Of a stretch of 64,000 bases of DNA, positions 7,122 to 28,348 are shown one piece after another. Every line of letters starts with the position of its first letter. Position 1 is the first letter of the stretch. Source of the DNA: a virus (lineage: Duplodnaviria; Caudoviricetes). The DNA is taken from the IMG/VR virus record IMGVR_UViG_2837678835_000002, positions 346 to 64,345 of that record; one strand, given 5' to 3'. The translations under genes were made by a program, and so were the position numbers. The notes under the pieces were generated by a model that made no database searches, was not told the DNA's origin, and worked only from the letters and a program-made list of their open reading frames with translations.

Positions 7122-7585
7122 TGAGCCGTCGGCGCGATCCCCATACGCGCGACCTCTTCGCGTCTCCCGAGCCCGTCTCAGTCGGTTTCGATCCTGAGGT
7201 TATCGGGCGCGGCTCCCTCGCCTCGCAGATCGCCAGGGTGGTCAGCCGAACGACGCAAGACGCACGCGAGGAACTCGGGATCACCCGCCGGCAGCTGGCG
7301 GAGCGTCTCACCGACCGTCTTGGCCGCTCCGTCTCGGAGACGACAATCGAAAAATGGGCTTCGGAATCGGCGGAAGAGCATCGGATCCCACTCGACGCCT
7401 TTGTTGCTCTCATCGCCGAGACCAAAGGCTACGAGGCGCTTGGCTTCATTCCCTCGCTGTTCGGCTACGCGGTGGTCGAAGAGAAGTACGTCGAGATCAT
7501 CGAGATGAAGCAGATCGAGGATCACAAGCGCCTCCTAGATGCTCGGATGGCGACGCTTCAGGCCAAGGCAAGGGCTCGGCAATGA
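7121..7585 (+). CDS. Putative DNA-binding phage protein
   Basis: HTH-like TRRQLAERLTDRLGRSVSETTIEKWASES; coupled to both neighbours; typical gene before A in alphaproteobacterial Mu-like phages. Confidence 0.7.
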   Translation: MSRRRDPHTRDLFASPEPVSVGFDPEVIGRGSLASQIARVVSRTTQDAREELGITRRQLAERLTDRLGRSVSETTIEKWASESAEEHRIPLDAFVALIAETKGYEALGFIPSLFGYAVVEEKYVEIIEMKQIEDHKRLLDARMATLQAKARARQ

Positions 7586-9846
7586 AGCAGTGGCTCACGG
7601 CACAAGAACTCGCTGCCCAGGCTCTTCCGCACCTTCCTTCCACGAAGCGCGGAATCAACGATCTGGCGATCCGTGAGTGTTGGAACGAGCATCCAACCTT
7701 CGTGCGACGGCGATCGGGCCGTGGCGGGGGAATGGAGTATCACTTCCACATTCTGCCGACGCTGGCGCAGATCGAGTATTCACGCCGCCACCTCAAGGTC
7801 GGTATCCCCGCCTTGCCGCCTGTAGCGAACGATGAGACGGCTGTCGTGCCCGCCAATCCCATTGGCGCGAAGGCGGCGAAGCGTCGGGATGCGCGGCTGG
7901 CCATCGTCCAGCGGTTCAATTCCTTCCGTAAGGGGCTGACGCTCGGCCACTACGGTGCTCACGACCAGTTCGTCCGCAAGTACAACAACCGTTCTCTTGC
8001 CATCGACGAGTGGGTCGTCGACTTGGTGCCAAAGCTTTCTCAGCGCTCTCTCGAGCGATGGCAGGCCGAAGCGAAGAATGGCGGAGCCAAACTCGCTGTT
8101 GACCGGGCAGCTGCGCGGAAAGGCAAAGGCGTGCTCGATACCGCCAATGGTGGCGCAGTCCGCACGACGATTCTCGCTCTCCTCGCCGACAATCAGCACT
8201 TCACGGCCGAGCATATCCGTGACGTGGTGGCGTCTGAATACGGGAACACGCTTATTGTCCCGGGACGAGACTGTGAGAAGGCGGTGCCGCTGCCGCCAAT
8301 CCGGACCTTCCAGCACTTTTTGAAGGGTCTTCGAAGCTCGCACGCCGTAACGCTGATGCGAGTGCAGAACCCCGATCGCTTCCGCTCCACGATGGCGCCC
8401 AGAGGCCTCGGGACGCTGTCCCATGTCACCGAGCCCAACCAGCTTTGGCAAATCGACGCCTCGCCCGTCGACGCGCTCTGCACGGATGGCCGACACGCGA
8501 TCTACGTCTGCCTCGATATCGCGACACGGCGCATGGTCCTGTTCATTTCGAAGACGCCTCGGGCATCCGCTGTGGCGCTTCTCATTCGAAAGGCCATTCT
8601 CGCCTGGGGTGTCGCCGACAAGATCAAAACCGACAACGGCTCGGATTTCACCGCTCAAGACACAAAACGTCTATTCGCCTTCCTCGATATCGAAATCGAG
8701 CTTTCCGACGCCTACACGCCCACGCAGAAGGCGCATGTTGAGCGGGCGATCGGCGACTTTCAGAAAGACTGCGCGACCATGCTGCCCGGCTTCGTCGGCC
8801 ACAGCGTCGCGGACCGAAAGGCGATCGAGGAGCGCAGAAGTTTCGCGGCGCGACTCGGCACAAGTGACGAGGAGGTCTTCGGCGTCGCGCTTTCTGGCGA
8901 CGCACTGCAGGCCGAGGTCGATCGATGGGCGTCGCTGCGCGAACACGAGCCCCATGCCGGTCTCAAGGGAGAAACACCGTTCGCGGTCGCTGCGCGATCG
9001 ACAAAGCCCCCCCGGCATGTCGACGAGCGCGCTCTCGATCTCCTCCTGATGACCGTGCCGCAGGGCGGCACGCGCCGCGTGACGTCGAGCGGCATCCGGG
9101 TCGACGGCAACCACTACATGACGCCGTCGATCCTGCCTGGGACAGAGGTGCTGGTACGCATGGACAGCGCCGATCTCGGTGTCGTCTACGCCTTCGCACC
9201 GGACGGCGGTGACTTCCTCGGGGCGGGTATCTGCCCGCAACTTTCCGGCATCGACCCCGCGGACGCTGCCCGGGCGCTGAAAGCGATGCAGAACGAGATC
9301 ACCCAGAAGGGCGCAGCGGCAATCAAGGCCGAAATCCGGCGTCTGAAGAAGGGCGGCGCCTGGCACGAACGCATCCTCGGTGTCCGAGAAGCGCGCGCGC
9401 CGAACGTCGTCGCCATGCCGAAGCGAGGCGAGACCCATGTCACGCCGCAGATCGCGGCTGCACTCGAGGCCATGGATGCCGCCGACGATCGGCGGAGACC
9501 TGTGCCTACGGATCCACGCGTAGCGGAAGAGCAGCGCCGTTTGATTGCAGAAATGACGGCCGCCGACGAGCGGGCGCTGTGGGAGCGCGGCCGCGAGAGT
9601 TCGCGCCGGCGCGAGGCGGAGATCGAGGCCGAACGGACGGCCCATCTACCAGTCACCGTCCGAGCGCTGCCGGAATCGCCGCGGGCAAAATACGTCCGCA
9701 TGGAGCTTTTGCGCCGCCGCATCGAGGCCGGCGAACAGGTCGATGTCGAGGATGCGATCCTGCTCGGCCGATACCAGGAAACCCCCGAATTCAAAGGCCA
9801 GCGCGACATGCACGAGGTCTACGGGGACGAATACCTGGCGCTCTGA
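7582..9846 (+). CDS. Mu-like DDE transposase (A)
   Basis: N-terminal Mu DNA-binding domain (WLTAQELA...LPHLPSTKRGIN...GRGGGMEYH); catalytic WQIDASP, KTDNGSDF, KAHVERAIG. Confidence 0.95.
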   Translation: MKQWLTAQELAAQALPHLPSTKRGINDLAIRECWNEHPTFVRRRSGRGGGMEYHFHILPTLAQIEYSRRHLKVGIPALPPVANDETAVVPANPIGAKAAKRRDARLAIVQRFNSFRKGLTLGHYGAHDQFVRKYNNRSLAIDEWVVDLVPKLSQRSLERWQAEAKNGGAKLAVDRAAARKGKGVLDTANGGAVRTTILALLADNQHFTAEHIRDVVASEYGNTLIVPGRDCEKAVPLPPIRTFQHFLKGLRSSHAVTLMRVQNPDRFRSTMAPRGLGTLSHVTEPNQLWQIDASPVDALCTDGRHAIYVCLDIATRRMVLFISKTPRASAVALLIRKAILAWGVADKIKTDNGSDFTAQDTKRLFAFLDIEIELSDAYTPTQKAHVERAIGDFQKDCATMLPGFVGHSVADRKAIEERRSFAARLGTSDEEVFGVALSGDALQAEVDRWASLREHEPHAGLKGETPFAVAARSTKPPRHVDERALDLLLMTVPQGGTRRVTSSGIRVDGNHYMTPSILPGTEVLVRMDSADLGVVYAFAPDGGDFLGAGICPQLSGIDPADAARALKAMQNEITQKGAAAIKAEIRRLKKGGAWHERILGVREARAPNVVAMPKRGETHVTPQIAAALEAMDAADDRRRPVPTDPRVAEEQRRLIAEMTAADERALWERGRESSRRREAEIEAERTAHLPVTVRALPESPRAKYVRMELLRRRIEAGEQVDVEDAILLGRYQETPEFKGQRDMHEVYGDEYLAL

Positions 9847-9857
9847 CGCGCCGAACG

Positions 9858-9885
9858 AAAAAGACCCGGCCACGAGAGCCGGGTC
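9858..9885 (-). terminator. Hairpin between A and B; possible minus-strand intrinsic terminator
   Basis: GACCCGGC-7nt-GCCGGGTC preceded by AAAAA (a U-tract on the minus strand). Confidence 0.4.
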
Positions 9886-9926
9886 CGAAAAGACGGCCAA
9901 AAGGCCGCATGTCCAATGAGGAGAGC

Positions 9927-10688
9927 ATGATGAACATGACGGTCTCGGTCAATCCCCCCGTCAACAAACCGGCACCACTGAGGAATGTGGCTGCCTTCAC
10001 CAGCCTGATCAATCGCGTCGTCGATCGTCGACCAGGCCTGCCGGGCCTTGCCTGCTTCTACGGGCACTCCGGACTCGGAAAGACCAAGAGCGCGATCTTC
10101 GGCGCCAACCGGCACCGCGCCGCATATGTCGAGTGCGGACAGATGACGACCGCCAGGTCGCTTCTGGTGTCGATCCTGATGGAACTTGGACTGCCGAAGC
10201 CGAAGGGCACGGCGACCGACATGCTCAACGAGATCGTCGAGATACTCGCCCGCGATCCCAGGCGGCCGCTGATCATCGACGAGGCGCATCACATCGCTCA
10301 CAAGGCCTTCGTCGATGTCGTGCGCGAGCTGCACGACAAGAGCGACGCACCGATCGTGCTGATCGGCGAAGAGACGCTTCCGAAGCATCTCGAAGCCTAT
10401 GAGCGCGTTCACAATCGGATGCTCGACTGGGTGGCTGCGGTGCCTTGCGACGCCGAGGACTTCGCGATGTTGGCTCGGACCGTGGCGCCACGGCTTTCCA
10501 TTGGCGCTGATCTTGCATCGGAGATGCTGGACGTCACCGCCGGAAATACCCGCCGCATCGTCGTGAACCTGGCGAAGGCCGAGGAGATCGCCGCCCGCGA
10601 CGGCCTGGACACGATCGGTCTCGACCAGTTCGGCGGGCGCGAAGCCATCCTCGGCCTGCGCGCGCCGATGCCGAGGGCAGCCCGATGA
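9927..10688 (+). CDS. Mu B-like AAA+ ATPase
   Basis: Walker A GHSGLGKT, Walker B LIIDEAHH, IVLIGEE; GAGGAG RBS before ATG 9927. Confidence 0.93.
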   Translation: MMNMTVSVNPPVNKPAPLRNVAAFTSLINRVVDRRPGLPGLACFYGHSGLGKTKSAIFGANRHRAAYVECGQMTTARSLLVSILMELGLPKPKGTATDMLNEIVEILARDPRRPLIIDEAHHIAHKAFVDVVRELHDKSDAPIVLIGEETLPKHLEAYERVHNRMLDWVAAVPCDAEDFAMLARTVAPRLSIGADLASEMLDVTAGNTRRIVVNLAKAEEIAARDGLDTIGLDQFGGREAILGLRAPMPRAAR

Positions 10689-18176: not shown

Positions 18177-18743
18177 ATGTCGCGTACCTCGCGAGGCCGG
18201 CTTTCCTCTATCGACCTCCTGCCGCCGGAGGCCGATCCGATCGTCCAGTGGGCCGTCGAGGAGTTGCAGGCACGCGAGCGGACCCAGGCCGATATCCTCT
18301 TCGAGATGAACGATCGGCTTGAAGCGATCGGCTGCGAGGCGATCTCGTCCAGCGCCTTCAACCGATATTCGACGCGGCTCGCCGCGACGACGCGCCGGCT
18401 CCAGGAAACCCGGGACATCGCCAAGGCGGTGACCGAGCGGCTCGGGCCCGACCGTGCCGACGACATCACGATCATGCTCGTCGAGATGATCAAGAGTTCG
18501 GTCTATTCGATCCTCGAAACCGGCAATGTCGACACGCAAGGCGTGATGTTCCTGGCGAACGCCGTGAAGTCGGCGCTGGCGGCGCAGAAGGTATCCGCCG
18601 ACGCCCGACGGATCGCGCATTCCGAGATGCAGAAGAAGCTCGACGAGGCAGCGAAGGCCGTCGAGGAAGTCGGTGGGGAAAAGGGCTTTTCGGCTGAAAC
18701 CGTCGAAGCCATCAAGGCTCGAATCCTGGGGGTGAGCCTTTGA
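18177..18743 (+). CDS. Small terminase (Mu gp27/DUF3486)
   Basis: GRLSSIDLLP...ISSSAFNRY...GFSAETVEAIKARILG. Confidence 0.85.
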   Translation: MSRTSRGRLSSIDLLPPEADPIVQWAVEELQARERTQADILFEMNDRLEAIGCEAISSSAFNRYSTRLAATTRRLQETRDIAKAVTERLGPDRADDITIMLVEMIKSSVYSILETGNVDTQGVMFLANAVKSALAAQKVSADARRIAHSEMQKKLDEAAKAVEEVGGEKGFSAETVEAIKARILGVSL

Positions 18744-19999
18744 ATTCTAAAACTCAAACACCGTCAGAAAGGTTCGCAATCGATGAATACAGCATTCTCA
18801 TCGCCTTGGGTAATCGTGACTCTATTCGAGAAGGAATAGGCCACGGACATCGTTTTTTCGTACCAATCAGGGCGACTGGAAGAGGGGCAGACATACATCT
18901 GACTGTGGTTGAAGTCGGACCTTTTGAGCGGTCGCATGACGATTGGACCGCCCGTAACCAGGCGATCAAAATCTGTGGTTTCTGGAATTTCATCGGACCA
19001 AAACCAAGCGCCCTCGAAGTCCGCAGACTCGTCCAGTGCAATGTAAGAAGGGGAAATCCTCGTATTAGAGATATTTGCGTTTGCCAGCGACGAAACCTCC
19101 CGTGTGGGGGCGAGGTCGAGCGTCGAGCCCGAAAGCTTAGCGCCGCTCAGGTCGATATCACCAGTAGAAAAGTCTATTTCGGCGTTAACGATTTCAAGAA
19201 ATCTCAATGGAACGTTCAGAAATTGATAGCGCGGTATGCGCTTAAATTTTACTCCCCGGAATTTCACGCTTCCTCCATCGATCGACACACCTTCCAAATC
19301 GATCTGCGATCCGCTTATCGTCAGATCGACGTCGGTGAATTTGCATCCATTGAGTTTAGCGCCGCTGATTTCAAGTGTAACTTCAAGAGGACCCGCAAAC
19401 AGGCAGTCTCTCATATCAGCGTCATGAACGTTCGCATCGAATGCTCGCTTGACGTTGCTCGAGTTGATCATCTTGAGGCCGCGAAGATAGGTTCCTTGTC
19501 CGGGTATGCATGTGTCCTGATTTGTCATCGCCTTGCACGACAAATCGAGGCCAACAAGGTTTTGATGATTGGCGAAAAGCCATTCGATAGCTTCGACTTT
19601 GCCGCTATTGCCGGAGGCATGCGTGGTCAGGAGTTGCCAGTAGCGCGCGGCTTGTTCGGACTTCAGGTCGTTGAGTTGGACGTTCGTCGCCTCCAGAGTT
19701 TGTCTAGTTGCATACAACGTGAAGAGGAAAGCGGCAGCTGCGACGAGCTTAGTCAAGGGATGATCCTCAACACGTCGCAACCAGTCAAATCGCCACACGG
19801 CCGCGCCACAACCTTTAGCGGCCGCCCACGCTCTGACCGGGCAGATAAGCGCCCGTGCCTTGCCGTATCGGCGAGCAGAGCCCGCTTCATCCCCTGCGGC
19901 AGAATTCGTCGTGGGAAGAAGCGCCATTTCCAAGAACCCTTTAGTCAGATGCGACAAAAGCCTACCGGACTTGGCGCTTGCGGTGCGAGCGGAAAATGA
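18740..19999 (+). other. Sense-strand bridge ORF (419 codons) spanning the antisense moron
   Basis: TTG overlaps the terS stop (TTGA 18740-18743) and its stop overlaps the terL start (ATGA 19996-19999). Translation resembles no family I recognise. Confidence 0.45.
18764..19927 (-). CDS. Membrane-anchored pentapeptide-repeat protein (antisense moron)
   Basis: TM (LVAAAAFLFTLYAT), ARYWQLL...GNSGKVEAIEWL...NLVGLDLS, then A(D/N)LxG-like repeats; lower GC than flanks. Start is 19927 or 20008. Confidence 0.75.
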   Translation of the reverse strand: MALLPTTNSAAGDEAGSARRYGKARALICPVRAWAAAKGCGAAVWRFDWLRRVEDHPLTKLVAAAAFLFTLYATRQTLEATNVQLNDLKSEQAARYWQLLTTHASGNSGKVEAIEWLFANHQNLVGLDLSCKAMTNQDTCIPGQGTYLRGLKMINSSNVKRAFDANVHDADMRDCLFAGPLEVTLEISGAKLNGCKFTDVDLTISGSQIDLEGVSIDGGSVKFRGVKFKRIPRYQFLNVPLRFLEIVNAEIDFSTGDIDLSGAKLSGSTLDLAPTREVSSLANANISNTRISPSYIALDESADFEGAWFWSDEIPETTDFDRLVTGGPIVMRPLKRSDFNHSQMYVCPSSSRPDWYEKTMSVAYSFSNRVTITQGDENAVFIDCEPF

Positions 20000-21603
20000 G
20001 AGAACCAATTCTCCAAACAGAATGGGCAGAGCTGCGTCGTGAGGCGATGGCGGTGATGCCGTCCGAGGTCTCTGGCCTCCCGGACGTTCTCCTCACCTAT
20101 CAGCAGGAGCTGGTCGCCTCAGTCTCCAACTTCGCTTTGACCGTCACAGACAAGTCCCGGCGAATTGGCGCGACTTGGGGCGTCGGCGCGGCGGCTGTGC
20201 TCACCTCCGGCGCCAAGCGCTCCGCCGGCGGGATGGACACGCTCTATCTCGGCTACAATCTCGACATGGCGCGGGAGTTCATCGACACCTGCGCCATGTG
20301 GGCGCGGGCATTCAACCAGGCCTGCTCGAAGGTCCAGGAATATCTCTTCACCGAAGAAGGCGAGAAGGGCGAGGACCGGGCCATCCAGGCGTTCCGGATC
20401 ACGTTCGCTTCCGGTTTTGAGATCGCCGCGCTCTCCTCGAAGCCCCGCAGCTTGCGCGGCCGCCAGGGCTTCGTCATCCTCGACGAGTTCGCCTTTCACG
20501 ACGATGCCGAGGAGCTGCTCAAGGCGGCGATGGCGCTGCTCATCTGGGGCGGCAAGGTGCTGGTGATCTCGACCCACAACGGCGTCGACAATCCCTTCAA
20601 CCTGCTCATTCAGGAGATCCGCGAACAGCGTCGGCCCGGGAACGTCGTGCGATGCACTTTCGACGACGCCCTGGCGCAGGGCCTCTATCAGCGGATCTGT
20701 CTTATCCGCGGCCGCGAATGGTCGCCGGAAGCCGAGGCGAAATTCCGGGACGAGATCCGGGCGTTCTATGGCGACGGCGCGGCCGAGGAACTCGACTGTA
20801 TCCCGAGCCAAGGTTCCGGCGTCTATCTGACGTCGGCCCAGATCGAGGCGGTGATGACACCGGACACGCCGGTCTTTCGGCTGGCTTGTCCGCAAGGCTT
20901 CGAGCTGAAGCCTGACATCGAACGCGCGGCCTACGTCCAGGCATGGCTCGAGCTTATGGTCTCGCCGTGCCTTGAGACGCTCGATCGGCGCTTGCGCCAC
21001 CACTATGGCTTTGACTTCGGACGGTCGGGCGACCTCTCCGTCCTCGTGCCGATCGCCGAGCAGCGCAACCTCGTCCGGCGCGTGCCCTTCGTCGTCGAGC
21101 TGCGCAACGTGCCGTTCCGCCAGCAGGAACAGATCCTCTTCTGGATCGCGGATCGCCTCCCACGATTCGGCAACGGCCGCCATGACGCCCGCGGCAACGG
21201 CCAGTTCCTCGCCGAATACGCGATCCAGCGCTACGGCGCCCTGGCGATCGAAGCGGTGATGCTCTCCCAGGCCTGGTATCTGGAGAACATGCCGCCGATG
21301 AAGGCGGCGATCGAGGACCGGACGCTGCTGATTGCCCGCGACGCCGACCATAAGACCGATCTTCGCCAGATCCAGATGGTGCGCGGCATCCCGATGGTGC
21401 CGAACGACGCCCGCACGAAAGGCGCCGATGGGGGCCAGCGGCACGGCGACTTTGCCGTCGCGCTCTGCCTCGCCCATCAGGCCGCGAAGGCGGAGGTGAT
21501 GGAATACGGCTACACGCCCGCCTCCGCACTCGATGAAACGGGTGGCCTTGGATTTGCGAGCGGCGGGGGCAGCCTCAATACGGGAGACCGAACGCTATGG
21601 TGA
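19996..21603 (+). CDS. Large terminase (Mu gp28-like)
   Basis: LLTYQQ, KSRRIGATW, LRGRQGFVILDEFAFH, ISTHNG, GFDFGRSGDLS, HGDFAVA. Confidence 0.95.
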   Translation: MREPILQTEWAELRREAMAVMPSEVSGLPDVLLTYQQELVASVSNFALTVTDKSRRIGATWGVGAAAVLTSGAKRSAGGMDTLYLGYNLDMAREFIDTCAMWARAFNQACSKVQEYLFTEEGEKGEDRAIQAFRITFASGFEIAALSSKPRSLRGRQGFVILDEFAFHDDAEELLKAAMALLIWGGKVLVISTHNGVDNPFNLLIQEIREQRRPGNVVRCTFDDALAQGLYQRICLIRGREWSPEAEAKFRDEIRAFYGDGAAEELDCIPSQGSGVYLTSAQIEAVMTPDTPVFRLACPQGFELKPDIERAAYVQAWLELMVSPCLETLDRRLRHHYGFDFGRSGDLSVLVPIAEQRNLVRRVPFVVELRNVPFRQQEQILFWIADRLPRFGNGRHDARGNGQFLAEYAIQRYGALAIEAVMLSQAWYLENMPPMKAAIEDRTLLIARDADHKTDLRQIQMVRGIPMVPNDARTKGADGGQRHGDFAVALCLAHQAAKAEVMEYGYTPASALDETGGLGFASGGGSLNTGDRTLW

Positions 21604-23210
21604 AGGCCGCGATCGTCCGCTTCCAGGATCGCTGGGGCCGCTCGCCGGAAGCTTCGAGCCTCGGCTCGGAATTCGCAACGCCGCAGGAATGGGGGCCCCG
21701 TCGTGTGATCGGCGACGCCGTCGTCTCGGGGCTCGGTCCGGAGCGGCTTGCCGCAATCCTCCGCCAGTCGGCCGACGGCGATACGCGGTCCTATCTGACG
21801 CTCGCGATGGAGATGGATGAGCGCTACCTCCACTATGCGTCGCAGCTGCAGACCCGGCGCCTGGCCATCGAAGGCATCCCGGTCACGATCGAGCACGATG
21901 ACAAGGTGCCGAAAAAGATCGTCGACGCGGTGAACGACCTGGTCGAGGATACCCGCTTCGAGGAGATGGCCGGGACGCTGACCGATGCGATCGGCAAGGG
22001 CTATGCGGTCTCCGAGATCATCTGGGACTATGAGCGCGGTTTCCTTCGACCCGTCGACTACCGCTGGCGCGACCAGCGCTTCTTCCAATACGACGAGGCC
22101 ACCCGGACAGAACTGCGGCTCCGCGACAATGGCGACCCCCGCAATGGTCTGGCGCTGCCGGCGGCGAAGTTCCTCATCCATGAGCCGCGCACCCGGATGG
22201 GGCTGCCGATCCGCCGCGGCATGGCCCGGCCTGCGGCCTGGGCGTTCCTGATCCAGAGTTTTGCCCTCAAGGACTGGGCGAGTTTCGCCGAGATCTACGG
22301 CGTGCCGCTCCGCGTCGGCAAGTTCGGGCCGAACGCCTCGGAGGCAGACAAGCGGATCCTCCTGCAGGCGGTCCGCGCCATTGCCAACGACGCGGCCGCG
22401 ATCATCCCGGCCGGAATGGAAATGGAATTCGCCAAGGTCGAAGGGCAGCACGGTGCCGGCGTGTTCGGTGGGCTGATCGACTATGTCGACAAGCAGGTCT
22501 CCAAACTCGTGCTCGGCCAGACGATGACCTCGGACGATGGTTCGTCGAAGGCTCAGGCGACAGTCCACAACGACGTGCGTCTCGATATCCAGATGGCGGA
22601 CGGCAAGCAGCTCGGCCAGACAATCACGCGAGATCTCGTCGTGCCCTTCGTCGCGCTGAATTTCGGGCCGCAGGAGCTTTATCCGCGAGCCGTCTACCAG
22701 GTCGCTGCGCCGGAGGACCTCGAAGGGCTGAAGAATTACGTTACCTCTCTCGTTCCGCTGGGGCTGAAGGTTTCCCAGCGAGAGATGCGGGAGCGCGGCG
22801 GGCTTTCGGAGCCGGAGGATGGCGAGGAGCTGCTGAGGCCGGCAACGCTGCCAACGGAGGGCGGCGAGAAGGACAAAAAGCCGGAGGGACCGGCAGGCGA
22901 TCCGGCGAAAGGGGACGCGTCGAGGACGGCAAGACTCGCGGCCGTTGGTGCACCAGCTGGCGACGCGATCGACCAGGCGGTGGCGGAGGTGCTCGGCGAA
23001 GAGGATTGGGAGCCTCTCGTCGCACCGATGATCGCGGGGCTCGAGGCAAAGCTCTCCGCTGCGGCCGACCTCGATGAAGCGAGGGCGATCCTCGCAGCCC
23101 ACCTGGCGGCGATGGATCCGAGCGCGCTGGCGGAAAAGCTCACCCAGGCGGTCTTCGCCGCGCGGATCGCCGGGGAGGCGGAAGAGCCTCTGATCGACGG
23201 CGGAGCCTGA
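21597..23210 (+). CDS. Portal (Mu gp29/DUF935)
   Basis: DAIGKGYAVSEIIW, FAEIYGVPLRVGKF, SKLVLGQTMT, VHNDVR. Confidence 0.93.
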   Translation: MVKAAIVRFQDRWGRSPEASSLGSEFATPQEWGPRRVIGDAVVSGLGPERLAAILRQSADGDTRSYLTLAMEMDERYLHYASQLQTRRLAIEGIPVTIEHDDKVPKKIVDAVNDLVEDTRFEEMAGTLTDAIGKGYAVSEIIWDYERGFLRPVDYRWRDQRFFQYDEATRTELRLRDNGDPRNGLALPAAKFLIHEPRTRMGLPIRRGMARPAAWAFLIQSFALKDWASFAEIYGVPLRVGKFGPNASEADKRILLQAVRAIANDAAAIIPAGMEMEFAKVEGQHGAGVFGGLIDYVDKQVSKLVLGQTMTSDDGSSKAQATVHNDVRLDIQMADGKQLGQTITRDLVVPFVALNFGPQELYPRAVYQVAAPEDLEGLKNYVTSLVPLGLKVSQREMRERGGLSEPEDGEELLRPATLPTEGGEKDKKPEGPAGDPAKGDASRTARLAAVGAPAGDAIDQAVAEVLGEEDWEPLVAPMIAGLEAKLSAAADLDEARAILAAHLAAMDPSALAEKLTQAVFAARIAGEAEEPLIDGGA

Positions 23211-27763: not shown

Positions 27764-28348
27764 ATGGTGAAAGACACCTCCAAGACCAGGACGGCCAACA
27801 CCCTGCTGGCATCCACCACCGCGGCTTCGAACCCGCCTCCTGCTTCGCCGGCGACGCCCGCGGCGGCAAATCCCGCCGTCACCGGGACGCCTCCGGCCGA
27901 TGCGCCAGCGGTGAAGGTCACCACCGAGGCTGCAACGCAGCCGGTGCTCGAATCCGTCCAGACATCCACTGGTCCCACCGGCGAGCCGCGGTCGGCTGAG
28001 ATCGAGCCGCAGCTGCCTCGCTCCGCGGCGTTCCGGGCCCGGGCTGATGCCAGCTTCGATCCTGAATTCTCCGCCACCGGGCGTTCGACCTATGCCGGCA
28101 CGCTCCCCGCCAAGACGCGGGTCCTGGCGAGCGGCGAGCGGATCGAGATCTCGGCGGTGGCGCCCGACACCGAGACCCGAAAGTTCACCGCGGCAATCCG
28201 GATCCTGAAATCGAAGGTGCTCTACGAGCCCGGCGCCAAGGTGCCGCTGACGCGGATCGACTTCGAGGCCAAGCGCTCGCGGGGATCGATCCTCGAGCGC
28301 TTCTTCGAGGACGGCGAGGAAGCCGGCGAGACGGCTTCGGCGGGGTAG
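27764..28348 (+). CDS. Ala/Pro/Thr-rich hypothetical protein (stop codon inside the tRNA gene)
   Basis: ORF follows the capsid gene; TAG at 28346-28348 is tRNA positions 8-10. Confidence 0.65.
   Translation: MVKDTSKTRTANTLLASTTAASNPPPASPATPAAANPAVTGTPPADAPAVKVTTEAATQPVLESVQTSTGPTGEPRSAEIEPQLPRSAAFRARADASFDPEFSATGRSTYAGTLPAKTRVLASGERIEISAVAPDTETRKFTAAIRILKSKVLYEPGAKVPLTRIDFEAKRSRGSILERFFEDGEEAGETASAG

What the first reader, a model, noticed from the sequence alone, without database searches (positions are those of the whole stretch)
18740..20008. Antisense moron between terminase genes is spanned by a doubly coupled sense-strand bridge ORF
Seen: a lower-GC minus-strand gene (18764-19927) separates terS and terL. 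On the plus strand a 419-codon frame starts exactly on the terS stop (TTGA) and ends exactly on the terL start (ATGA). It is in codon register with the moron, so the moron contains no TTA, CTA or TCA codon despite many Leu and Ser residues and moderate GC. Inference: selection keeps ribosomes on the late mRNA across 1.25 kb of foreign DNA, preserving terS-terL coupling and avoiding Rho polarity. This would be a general way to host lysogeny-expressed cargo inside a lytic operon. In-register antisense ORFs are common shadows, but exact overlaps at both ends are not expected of a shadow.
Basis: partly seen in the sequence, partly recalled or inferred. Interest (0 to 1): 0.75.

Follow-up and report, generated by a model that had tools for sequence, protein, structure and literature searches.

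The report
Stop-free bridge frame over backward prophage gene
A gene that sits backwards between the two DNA-packaging genes of a Mu-like prophage avoids every codon that would read as a stop on the opposite strand, apparently so that ribosomes on the phage's late messenger RNA can read straight across it into the next gene.

Summary
A 387-codon, 52.6% GC pentapeptide-repeat gene (18764-19927, minus) lies between Mu-type terS and terL. The plus strand carries a codon-aligned 419-codon frame that starts TTGA on the terS stop and ends ATGA on the terL start.

Zero TTA/CTA/TCA among 36 Leu and 32 Ser is not chance: P is about 1e-4 using other low-GC genes of this genome and 6e-8 using the window's two other morons.

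The closest relative prophage (Fulvimarina pelagi) has a 33%-identical homologue at the same site. Synonymous sites are saturated, yet the frame is again open and GTGA/ATGA-joined. The bridge peptide itself is not conserved.

Five further backward genes in three other loci behave alike (seven in all), as do two unrelated small backward inserts at terS|terL in other Mu-like phages. Six homologues not embedded backwards carry 6-27 such stops.

The end overlaps are partly inherited: relatives without the insert join terS and terL by ATGA.

Translation, Rho involvement and lysogenic expression remain untested.

This scan has noted the same pattern on other DNA. My literature searches found no description for DNA phages; the nearest are ambigrammatic narnaviruses, noncontiguous operons and P4 eta.

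The parts
18177..18743 (+). terS, small terminase subunit of Mu type (gp27), 188 aa
   Evidence: Pfam PF11985 Phage_Mu_Gp27 E 1.1e-35, profile 1-172 of 173. PHROG 426 terminase small subunit E 1.6e-37. The C-terminus LGVSL* has the same length as LGVxx* in relatives.
18728..18736 (+). G-rich Shine-Dalgarno-like stretch (GGGGGTGAG, the L-G-V codons of terS) 3-11 nt before the bridge's TTG
   Evidence: Sequence. The same GGGGTG stretch precedes terL's ATG in relatives without the insert. Its use as a ribosome-binding site is inferred.
18740..18743 (+). TTGA: the bridge start codon TTG overlaps the terS stop TGA
   Evidence: It occupies the position of the ancestral terS-stop/terL-start ATGA. The F. 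pelagi relative has GTGA here.
18740..19999 (+). Bridge ORF, 419 codons, codon-aligned with the backward gene; its peptide appears meaningless
   Evidence: No Pfam or PHROG family. No homologue at E <= 1e-3 among 4151 candidates. Against the F. pelagi bridge, the only significant alignment is a 58-residue stretch at 29% identity (E 6e-6), which I read as the mirror of the backward gene's conserved core. Codon-aligned identity is 20% against 33% for the backward gene. Arg is the commonest residue, 47 of 419.
18764..19927 (-). Backward cargo gene ('moron'): 387-aa protein with a predicted N-terminal membrane helix and a pentapeptide-repeat beta-helix; 52.6% GC; no TTA, CTA or TCA codon
   Evidence: Pfam PF00805 at 22.7 bits against a cut-off of 20.2. 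Homologues P0002 (E 4.5e-33) and P0003 (E 4.1e-30), plus eight Pfam-annotated pentapeptide proteins. AlphaFold model with mean pLDDT 72.5: helix 45-101, then beta strands. Foldseek best matches are the pentapeptide proteins HetL, MfpA and QnrB1, E from 4.5e-4 with low TM. Codon counts. The membrane anchoring is inferred from the hydrophobic stretch.
19996..19999 (+). ATGA: the bridge stop TGA overlaps the terL start ATG
   Evidence: The same overlap occurs in the F. pelagi locus. In 28 of 30 insert-bearing Mu-like loci, the last ORF before terL ends this way.
19996..21603 (+). terL, large terminase subunit, 535 aa
   Evidence: PHROG 2 terminase large subunit E 1.3e-28. Pfam PF03237 at 22.5 bits against a cut-off of 22. 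82% identical to the F. pelagi terL.
21597..23210 (+). Mu-type portal gene (context; next gene of the late operon)
   Evidence: Pfam PF06074 Portal_Mu E 3.9e-95.

Best explanation
The backward pentapeptide-repeat gene is foreign cargo that was inserted exactly at the terS-stop/terL-start overlap of a Mu-like late operon. Selection keeps the operon strand across it free of stop codons. It does this by forbidding three codons (TTA, CTA, TCA) in the cargo gene, which costs that gene no amino-acid change.

The proposed relay during lytic growth is as follows:
1. Ribosomes finish terS at TGA.
2. They restart one base back at TTG, behind terL's old ribosome-binding stretch.
3. They translate 419 meaningless codons.
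4. They stop on the TGA that overlaps terL's ATG and restart there.

This relay would keep 1.25 kb of late mRNA covered by ribosomes, so that Rho cannot load and the transcript is not left naked. It would also deliver ribosomes to terL.

Shown: the anatomy, the codon purge, its recurrence in diverged and unrelated loci, and the non-conservation of the bridge peptide.

Inferred: translation of the bridge, re-initiation at both joints, the role of Rho, and expression of the cargo in the lysogen.
For: 1. The codon purge is far beyond chance.

2. The F. pelagi relative (L031 = L034 = L050) has terL 82% and terS 85% identical. It carries a homologous 387-aa backward gene at the same site, 33% identical over 341 aligned codons.
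- Third-position identity is 0.30, that is, saturated.
- The 16 shared Leu columns use CTC, CTT, CTG and TTG freely, and never CTA or TTA.
- The gene has 35 Leu and 31 Ser and zero TTA/CTA/TCA.
- GTGA sits on the terS stop and ATGA on the terL start.

3. Within this genome, only 3 loci among the 29 ORFs of at least 300 codons with GC below 0.60 show a codon-aligned sense/antisense pair. These are this gene and two paralogous membrane-protein genes lying backwards in the early operon of a second prophage. The two paralogues are 33% identical (E 3e-29). Each is bridged by an NTGA-joined frame.

4. Homologues of the cargo gene:
- 7 of 7 genes embedded backwards have 0 stops in the codon-aligned opposite frame, and 5-28 stops in each of the other four frames. 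The seven are the window gene, F. pelagi, L038 twice, L045 and L046 twice.
- 6 of 6 homologues not so embedded have 6-27 stops in that frame (L035, L036, L037, L039, L042, L043).
- Fisher P = 5.8e-4. The groups were assigned after seeing the data and the rows are not independent.

5. All six bridges start NTGA on the upstream stop and end NTGA on the downstream start.

6. Of 75 IMG/VR Mu-like loci with both terS and terL, 30 carry inserts of 151-1225 nt. Every one of the 30 is tiled by plus-strand ORFs. Besides F. pelagi, the two distinct backward-looking inserts are each spanned by one codon-aligned, doubly joined frame. These are L060 (identical to L061), whose protein has a 44%-identical homologue, and L112, whose minus ORF is the one a public annotation calls.

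7. The F. pelagi terL has no Shine-Dalgarno-like motif before its ATG, so it would depend on the relay.

8. The host has rho.

9. In phage lambda, whose late transcription I recall to be Q-antiterminated, the backward genes bor and lambdap78 carry 3 and 14 such stops.

10. In print, P4 eta translation coupled to the upstream gene prevents termination (PMC10111431, passages). The authors of the noncontiguous-operon atlas name the untranslated stretch as a puzzle (PMC11034616, passage).
Against: - There is no expression evidence of any kind. No sequencing run was listed and no ribosome data exist.
- TTG is a weak start.
- A 419-aa junk peptide per pass is costly.
- The NTGA ends are largely inherited from the ancestral junction, so they add less than they seem to.
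- L039 (Paraglaciecola) has a homologue opposite to both neighbours that carries 18 stops. It lies 586 and 177 nt from those neighbours, so it may not be inside an operon.
- The 'embedded' class was assigned after I had seen the stop counts. Several rows share ancestry: window with F. pelagi, the two L038 genes, and the two L046 genes.
- For L060 and L112 the internal-stop statistic alone is weak (P about 0.12-0.13 each).
- No convincing promoter upstream of the cargo gene and no terminator for it was found, so its 'lysogeny-expressed' status is an assumption.
- The mean C and G contents of the bridge RNA are equal (0.26 each). On average it is not a C-over-G Rho substrate.
Confidence: 0.6

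Rival explanations
1. Filter on arrival. Only cassettes that already had an open mirror frame could insert without killing the phage. Such pre-adapted cassettes then circulate between operon junctions. There is no continuing selection in place.
For: - One cassette of the second prophage is flanked by a direct repeat, 21 of 24 nt by my count from the printed alignment (36 of 64 positions in the whole comparison). The repeat is the duplicated ribosome-binding stretch, ATGA and first codons of the downstream gene, which suggests a stereotyped insertion.
- The two cassettes there share a 61-nt end at 75% identity.
- The same protein family is found backwards in five loci.
Against: - For genes of this composition, the chance of being open on arrival is about 1e-4 to 1e-2, and free homologues carry 6-27 stops.
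- The window and F. pelagi copies share site, length and frame yet are saturated at synonymous sites. If they descend from one insertion, openness was kept through many substitutions.
- Even under this rival the open frame is what is selected; only the time of selection differs.
Confidence: 0.12
2. The frame is kept open because translation protects the late mRNA in some way other than blocking Rho. For example, it could hinder pairing with the cargo gene's own transcript and so prevent RNase III cleavage or other decay. Coupling to terL would be secondary.
For: - Both strands are presumably transcribed at some time. Antisense regulation by collision and double-stranded RNA is what the noncontiguous-operon papers discuss (PMC11087260 and PMC11034616, passages).
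- For ambigrammatic narnaviruses, ribosome coating of the RNA is the favoured idea (10.1101/2020.12.18.423567, abstract and passages).
- The mean C and G contents of the bridge RNA are equal, so on average it is not a C-over-G Rho substrate.
Against: - Nothing distinguishes this from the Rho reading in sequence.
- The NTGA joints at both ends in 6 of 6 bridges fit a relay that hands ribosomes on.
- The F. pelagi terL lacks its own Shine-Dalgarno-like motif.
Confidence: 0.1
3. Ordinary shadow ORF. Codon bias of a GC-rich host, together with the inherited ATGA junction, produces the picture by chance.
For: - In this 66.5% GC genome, about a quarter of ORFs of at least 300 codons lack TTA/CTA/TCA altogether (for example 1020 of 3864 at GC 0.65-0.70).
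- The end overlaps are inherited.
- Long codon-aligned antisense frames are described in print as statistical by-products (PMC3454372 and 10.1101/724807, search listing and start of abstract only).
Against: - This gene is not GC-rich. Of the 23 other ORFs with GC below 0.60, none has zero such codons (range 1-21).
- P(0) is about 1e-4 here, and between 3.5e-5 and 6.7e-3 for each of six further backward genes.
- Free homologues at the same GC3 (L035, GC3 0.57) carry 12 stops.
Confidence: 0.05
4. The plus-strand ORF encodes a functional protein, making this a true antisense overlapping gene pair.
For: - It is long, has a start and is coupled to its neighbours.
- Antisense overlapping genes with functions are claimed in Pseudomonas (PMC8850804, listing only).
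- They are also claimed in the Mu-like phage Fc02, where lytic gene 10 overlaps the lysogenic exclusion gene olg1 (PMC9936078, abstract and sections 15 and 17).
Against: - No family and no homologue.
- Against the F. pelagi bridge only 58 residues align, at 29% identity. I read that stretch as the mirror of the cargo's conserved core.
- In that core the cargo protein is 72-78% identical and the bridge 33%.
- Bridges over unrelated cargo genes are unrelated to each other.
Confidence: 0.05

Closest known systems
Ambigrammatic narnaviruses (reverse ORF over the RdRp gene of Culex narnavirus 1 and relatives; Retallack et al., bioRxiv 10.1101/2020.12.18.423567, abstract and passages seen)
   Same: - A codon-aligned reverse frame is kept open by avoiding exactly UUA, CUA and UCA in the forward gene.
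- The presence of the reverse ORF is conserved while its sequence is not.
- The favoured idea is that translation itself, not the product, matters.
   Different: - Those are RNA viruses of eukaryotes with the whole genome ambigrammatic. Here a single cargo gene in a DNA prophage of a bacterium is affected.
- Here the open frame is joined stop-to-start to real genes on both sides and serves an operon.
- The proposed benefit here (coupling and Rho polarity) is specific to bacteria.
Noncontiguous operons (Staphylococcus aureus atlas, PMC11034616; phage 80alpha tha/ith, PMC11087260; passages seen)
   Same: A gene with the opposite orientation is nested between genes of one operon. In phages this architecture ties a cargo or defence gene to the lysogeny/lysis switch.
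   Different: - Those papers treat the stretch opposite the backward gene as untranslated. They explain its tolerance by uncoupled 'runaway' transcription in Gram-positives (PMC11034616 discussion).
- In the 80alpha paper, 'rho' and 'translat' do not occur in the main text.
- Here the stretch is an open, coupled frame in a proteobacterium.
Satellite phage P4 eta/kil (Forti et al. 1999, known to me only through PMC10111431, passage seen)
   Same: Translation of an ORF, coupled to the upstream gene, prevents premature transcription termination so that a phage operon is read through.
   Different: eta is a real gene on the operon strand with a product. There is no backward gene under it and no synonymous-codon purge.
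Shadow ORFs of GC-rich genomes (PMC3454372; 10.1101/724807; listing and start of abstract only)
   Same: A long codon-aligned antisense frame without detectable function of its own.
   Different: Shadows follow from GC3-rich codon usage. This gene has GC3 0.57 and an expectation of 8-14 stops.
Phage morons in the sense of Hendrix and colleagues (recalled, not read here)
   Same: An extra gene absent from close relatives (L003 has none), with deviating GC, inserted between two conserved genes.
   Different: - Classical morons bring their own promoter and terminator and mostly point the same way as the operon.
- This one points backwards and leaves 20 nt to terS.
- No terminator and no convincing promoter was found.

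Membership tests
Shadow ORF explained by codon bias | The number of TTA/CTA/TCA codons in the real gene agrees with the codon usage of comparable genes | tested here: not met
   0 observed against 8.5 expected (P 9.5e-5) or 14.2 expected (P 6e-8).
Ambigrammatic sequence (narnavirus sense) | The forward gene avoids UUA/CUA/UCA, so that the codon-aligned reverse frame spans the whole gene | tested here: met
Ambigrammatic sequence (narnavirus sense) | The reverse ORF is conserved in presence across diverged relatives but not in sequence | tested here: met
   The F. pelagi relative has an open frame. The bridge is 20% identical and the cargo 33%; third positions are 0.30 identical.
Ambigrammatic sequence (narnavirus sense) | The reverse ORF is translated and needed | not testable with these tools
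   No RNA or ribosome data; no run was listed.
Noncontiguous operon | A gene of opposite orientation is nested between genes of one operon | tested here: met
   terS(+), cargo(-), terL(+), with 20 and 68 nt between them.
Noncontiguous operon | One transcript spans the flanking genes and the backward gene, and the backward gene has its own promoter | not testable with these tools
   No transcript data. The consensus scan found no convincing promoter upstream of 19927.
Translational coupling by overlapping stop and start (NTGA) | The stop of the upstream ORF overlaps the start of the downstream ORF | tested here: met
   TTGA at 18740-18743 and ATGA at 19996-19999. The same holds at both ends of 6 of 6 bridges.
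Translational coupling by overlapping stop and start (NTGA) | Downstream translation depends on upstream translation | not testable with these tools
   This needs reporter or mutant data.
Functional antisense overlapping gene | The amino-acid sequence of the antisense frame is under purifying selection | tested here: not met
   In the conserved core the bridge is 33% identical and the cargo 72-78%. No homologues.
Phage moron | Extra gene absent from close relatives, with deviating base composition | tested here: met
   L003 (terL 81% identical) joins terS and terL directly. GC is 0.50-0.54 against 0.64-0.67.
Phage moron | Own promoter and terminator | tested here: inconclusive
   The consensus scan found one promoter-like site, inside the gene, and one weak terminator-like site on the plus strand. 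Neither count exceeds that of shuffled sequence.
Pentapeptide repeat protein (PF00805) | Profile match above Pfam's cut-off | tested here: met
   22.7 bits against 20.2, which is marginal. Homologues score up to 126.8 bits.
Pentapeptide repeat protein (PF00805) | Right-handed quadrilateral beta-helix fold | tested here: inconclusive
   The model shows stacked strands from residue 124 on. Foldseek lists HetL, MfpA, QnrB1 and AlbG first, but with TM 0.14-0.23 for the whole model.
Known anti-phage defence families (PADLOC 2.0) | Match to a defence-system model | tested here: not met
   0 families for 7 of 7 cargo proteins.
Mu-type terminase pair | gp27-type small subunit followed by a large subunit and a Mu portal | tested here: met
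   PF11985 E 1.1e-35; PHROG 2 E 1.3e-28; PF06074 E 3.9e-95.

The most novel reading that the evidence does not exclude
A general design rule of phages and other mobile elements in bacteria with coupled transcription and translation: a gene may sit backwards inside a tightly coupled operon only if it is 'ambigrammatic', meaning purged of TTA, CTA and TCA so that a meaningless bridge frame, joined NTGA to both neighbours, relays ribosomes across it.

Some cargo families would be specialised for this life. Examples here are the membrane-anchored pentapeptide proteins and the two-helix membrane proteins of the second prophage. Such cassettes would move between operon junctions and duplicate the junction as they insert.

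Phages with processive antitermination (lambda-type) would be exempt.
Probability: 0.4. Interest if true: 0.85.

Novelty: new variant of a known kind. Interest (0 to 1): 0.72.

Why it matters
If the reading holds, it answers for proteobacteria a puzzle that the authors of the noncontiguous-operon atlas state in print: how an operon transcript survives a long stretch opposite a backward gene.

It would show that a synonymous-codon constraint can be imposed on a gene purely by the needs of the other strand's mRNA.

It would give annotators a rule. A long 'shadow' ORF that is NTGA-joined to real genes over a low-GC backward gene marks real cargo, not a mis-call.

It would also give a cheap sequence signature for finding lysogeny-type cargo, such as candidate defence or exclusion genes, hidden inside lytic operons.

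It extends the 'ambigrammatic' principle from eukaryotic RNA viruses to DNA phages, and it is directly testable with one synonymous point change.

Tried and rejected
Expression and context:
- Expression data: no RNA holder was listed and no run of any kind.
- tblastn of the cargo protein against the phage and plasmid collections found no match.
- The two-helix cargo family of the second prophage had no match outside G000 in 401 genomes of the order. In IMG/VR only its own sequence was found.

Family and signal searches:
- A profile comparison of that family with the pentapeptide family gave probability 0.3%, so I treat them as unrelated.
- PADLOC found nothing. NCBIfam gave only generic pentapeptide matches below cut-off.
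- PHROGs and Pfam found nothing for either strand of the L060 and L112 inserts. Which strand codes there rests on a 44%-identical homologue, on a public annotation of the minus ORF and on my impression that the plus-strand translations look non-protein-like.
- The promoter and terminator scan was uninformative.

Two screens for counter-examples in the 80 Mu-like loci failed as tests:
- Tiling by any plus ORF of at least 50 codons leaves no gap at all in GC-rich DNA.
- A GC3-based pick of minus ORFs is swamped by shadows of plus genes.
So 'no counter-example' holds only for the terS|terL slot that I inspected.

Ideas rejected:
- The minus gene as the artefact. It has homologues and a conserved core.
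- The bridge as a remnant of a longer terS tail. terS has full profile length and the same C-terminal length as its relatives.

Literature:
- The search for 'ambigrammatic' with 'prophage' listed no paper holding both terms.
- With 'bacteriophage' and 'operon', only the Pseudomonas overlapping-gene paper holds all three.
- The searches found no description of bridge frames over backward genes in DNA phages.
- The term 'non-stop frame' occurred in none of the papers listed. The nylonase 'non-stop frame' papers are recalled, not seen.
- Supplements are closed. Those of PMC11034616 and PMC11087260 might list ORFs opposite the backward genes, and I could not check.

Full report
**What is there**

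The window holds a Mu-like prophage.
- At 18177-18743 lies a gp27-type small terminase gene (PF11985, E 1.1e-35; PHROG 426).
- At 19996-21603 lies the large terminase gene (PHROG 2, E 1.3e-28).
- At 21597-23210 lies a Mu portal gene (PF06074, E 3.9e-95).

Between terS and terL, on the minus strand, lies an ORF at 18764-19927 (387 codons from its ATG). Its GC is 52.6%, in flanks of 64-67%.

On the plus strand a frame of 419 codons begins with TTG at 18740. That TTG overlaps the terS stop (TTGA). The frame ends with TGA at 19997-19999, which overlaps the terL ATG (ATGA). The TTG is the first start after an in-frame stop 42 nt upstream. The two frames use the same triplets, so every stop of the plus frame would be a TTA, CTA or TCA codon of the minus gene. 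That gene has 36 Leu and 32 Ser and none of the three codons.

**Which strand codes**

The minus strand is a real gene.
- It matches Pfam Pentapeptide just above the cut-off.
- It has homologues at E 4.5e-33 and 4.1e-30, and eight more distant ones that carry Pfam pentapeptide families.
- It shows a strongly conserved core (TM helix, then a GNSGK-containing motif) in an 18-sequence alignment.
- Its model has a long N-terminal helix followed by a stack of strands. The best fold neighbours are HetL, MfpA and Qnr-type pentapeptide proteins, though with low TM-scores.

The plus frame shows no sign of being a gene.
- It has no family.
- It has no homologue among 4151 candidates.

**Is the missing-codon pattern chance?**

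Three nulls were computed.
- From the gene's own use of A-ending codons in the other four-fold boxes (30 of 145): P(0) = 3.7e-6.
- From the 23 other ORFs of this genome with at least 300 codons and GC below 0.60 (CTA 73 of 822, TCA 86 of 475, TTA 50 of 205): 8.5 expected, P(0) = 9.5e-5.

None of those 23 ORFs has zero; their range is 1 to 21. The other four non-coding frames of the gene hold 12 to 28 stops each. In the GC-rich bulk of the genome about a quarter of long ORFs lack the three codons. The shadow explanation is therefore right in general, but not for this gene.

**The relative with the same insert**

Among 301 genomes of the family, 27 have a terL match. Only one of the 29 other loci holds a homologue of the cargo gene. 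It is the closest one: terL 82% and terS 85% identical. The tools title the same sequence Fulvimarina pelagi HTCC2506.
- A 387-codon homologue sits at the same site, backwards, at 50% GC.
- It has 35 Leu, 31 Ser and no TTA, CTA or TCA.
- The plus frame across it is open, has GTG on the terS stop (GTGA) and ends ATGA on terL.

The two cargo proteins are 33% identical over 341 aligned codons.
- Third positions are 0.30 identical, that is, random.
- In the conserved core the cargo is 72-78% identical and the mirror frame 33%.
- The 16 shared Leu columns use CTC, CTT, CTG and TTG interchangeably.
- The two bridge peptides align significantly over only 58 residues (29% identity), which I read as the mirror of that core.

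The flanking terS and terL are themselves far diverged at synonymous sites (four-fold identity 0.47-0.57). So openness is conserved and the bridge sequence is not.

**The same thing elsewhere**

In this genome only three loci among the low-GC long ORFs show codon-aligned pairs. Two of them lie in a second prophage (L046), inside an early operon with CII-like, GcrA-like and MT-A70 genes.
- The minus ORFs are paralogues (33% identical, E 3e-29), with apparent hydrophobic membrane segments by my reading of the translations.
- The plus translations look non-protein-like to me.
- The plus frames are joined ATGA, ATGA, GTGA and ATGA to their neighbours.

Homologues of the pentapeptide gene from other collections fall into two sets.
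- In L038 (a Roseibium MAG) two tandem copies are spanned by one 808-codon frame on the strand of the neighbouring genes.
- In L045 the homologue lies backwards between a 158-codon gene and a C5 methylase gene. Their strands are shown by third-position GC of 0.93-0.95, and the mirror frame is joined ATGA and GTGATG.
- These homologues have zero mirror stops, with P(0) between 3.5e-5 and 6.7e-3 each.
- Six homologues that are co-directional with their neighbours, convergent or isolated carry 6 to 27 mirror stops. One of them (L035) has the same GC3 of 0.57.

The totals are seven of seven against none of six. I assigned the classes after seeing the counts and the rows are not independent, so Fisher's P of 5.8e-4 is only a guide. 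L039 lies opposite to both neighbours but hundreds of bases from them and has 18 stops. It is either outside any operon or a counter-example.

**Different cargo at the same site**

Of 80 Mu-like loci from IMG/VR, 75 have both terS and terL.
- 37 of the 75 join them by a 4-nt overlap.
- 45 of the 75 join them within 2 nt.
- 30 of the 75 carry inserts of 151-1225 nt.

All 30 inserts are tiled by plus-strand ORFs joined mostly by NTGA. In 28 of the 30 the last ORF ends on terL's ATG. Most inserts are small genes in the operon's own direction.

Besides F. pelagi, two inserts look backward.
- L060 (identical to L061) has a 106-aa acidic minus ORF with a 44%-identical homologue.
- L112 has a 128-aa minus ORF, which is the one a public annotation calls.

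Each of these has lower GC than its flanks. Each is spanned by one codon-aligned plus frame that is joined at both ends and whose translation looks non-protein-like to me. They are too short for the stop count alone to be significant (P about 0.12-0.13). I found no backward insert with a closed frame at this site.

**What the ends mean**

In relatives without the insert, terS and terL overlap as ATGA or GTGA in 16 of 27 loci. terS ends LGV plus two residues, as it does here.
- The TTG therefore stands where terL's ATG stood, behind the same G-rich stretch.
- The closing TGA is simply terL's ATG followed by A.
- The insertion thus kept or duplicated the junction. One cassette in L046 still shows such a duplication, 21 of 24 nt by my count from the alignment printed.

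What is not given by history is that the cargo gene's register matches both joints, which is about one chance in nine per insertion. This holds in all six bridges examined.

**How it most likely works**

The relay is inferred: stop at terS, restart at TTG, read 419 codons, stop on terL's ATG, restart.
- It would keep the late mRNA covered, so that Rho, which the host has, cannot act on 1.25 kb of naked RNA.
- It would supply terL with ribosomes. In F. pelagi no Shine-Dalgarno-like motif precedes terL.
- The codon-aligned frame is the only antisense frame that can be cleared by synonymous changes alone, which explains why it is always this frame.

Precedents in print:
- Translation of P4 eta, coupled to the upstream gene, prevents termination (PMC10111431, passage).
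- The noncontiguous-operon atlas names the untranslated stretch as a puzzle and resolves it for Gram-positives by uncoupled transcription (PMC11034616, passage).
- Ambigrammatic narnaviruses avoid the same three codons (10.1101/2020.12.18.423567, passage).

As a contrast, lambda's backward genes bor and lambdap78 carry 3 and 14 mirror stops. I recall lambda's late transcription to be Q-antiterminated.

**What is not known**

- No transcript or ribosome data exist.
- The cargo gene's promoter, its expression in the lysogen and its function are unknown. PADLOC finds no defence family.
- Rho's role is untested. Protection from pairing with the antisense transcript, or from decay, would explain the same sequence facts.
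- A filter on arrival, rather than selection in place, is not excluded.

**Novelty**

My searches found no description of stop-free bridge frames over backward genes in DNA phages or bacterial operons. This scan has noted the same pattern on other DNA many times. Those are unchecked AI notes and not independent evidence.

I class the finding as a new variant of known kinds: ambigrammatic coding, noncontiguous operons and translation-dependent anti-polarity.

Noticed in passing
L046 (G000:C24:428000-446000), 7125-8243 and 9001-10446: A second prophage of the same genome has two paralogous low-GC membrane-protein genes lying backwards in its early operon (CII-like, GcrA-like, MT-A70). Each lies under an NTGA-joined bridge frame. 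The second cassette is flanked by a direct repeat, 21 of 24 nt by my count, which is the duplicated junction of the downstream methylase gene.
   Followed up: partly
L038 3812-6238 (minus strand): An 808-codon stop-free frame spans two tandem pentapeptide-repeat genes in a Roseibium MAG. It runs between a 527-aa gene and a 102-aa gene. A NusG-like paralogue lies further down the same strand.
   Followed up: partly
L045 3767-4873 (minus strand): A pentapeptide homologue lies backwards between a 158-aa gene and a C5 cytosine methylase gene. Only its C-terminal half is low in GC (0.40-0.46).
   Followed up: partly
L050-L129 (IMG/VR Mu-like loci), terS|terL junction: The terS|terL junction is an insertion hot spot. 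30 of 75 loci carry 151-1225 nt of extra genes there, and the inserts are almost always joined NTGA to both neighbours.
   Followed up: partly
L017 (G251), between terS stop 928 and terL start 1498: A 118-codon plus ORF joined ATGA at both ends lies opposite a minus ORF of about 100 codons. At 64% GC I could not tell which strand codes.
   Followed up: no
The preceding ORF ends at 28348, so only about 80 nt are without an open plus frame.
   Followed up: no
L004 (G097), upstream of terL: The terL reading frame is open for 837 codons, about 300 more than the gene, running back over terS. This is probably a GC-rich shadow.
   Followed up: no
L130 (lambda NC_001416 46459-47575): Lambda's backward genes bor and lambdap78, which lie in the path of late transcription, carry 3 and 14 codon-aligned mirror stops. 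They are not bridged.
   Followed up: partly
window 19928-20008 (minus strand): The cargo ORF can be extended 27 codons upstream to a TTG at 20008, inside terL. The extension contains the TCA that is the bridge's stop. The ATG at 19927 is the more likely start, but its ribosome-binding site is weak.
   Followed up: no
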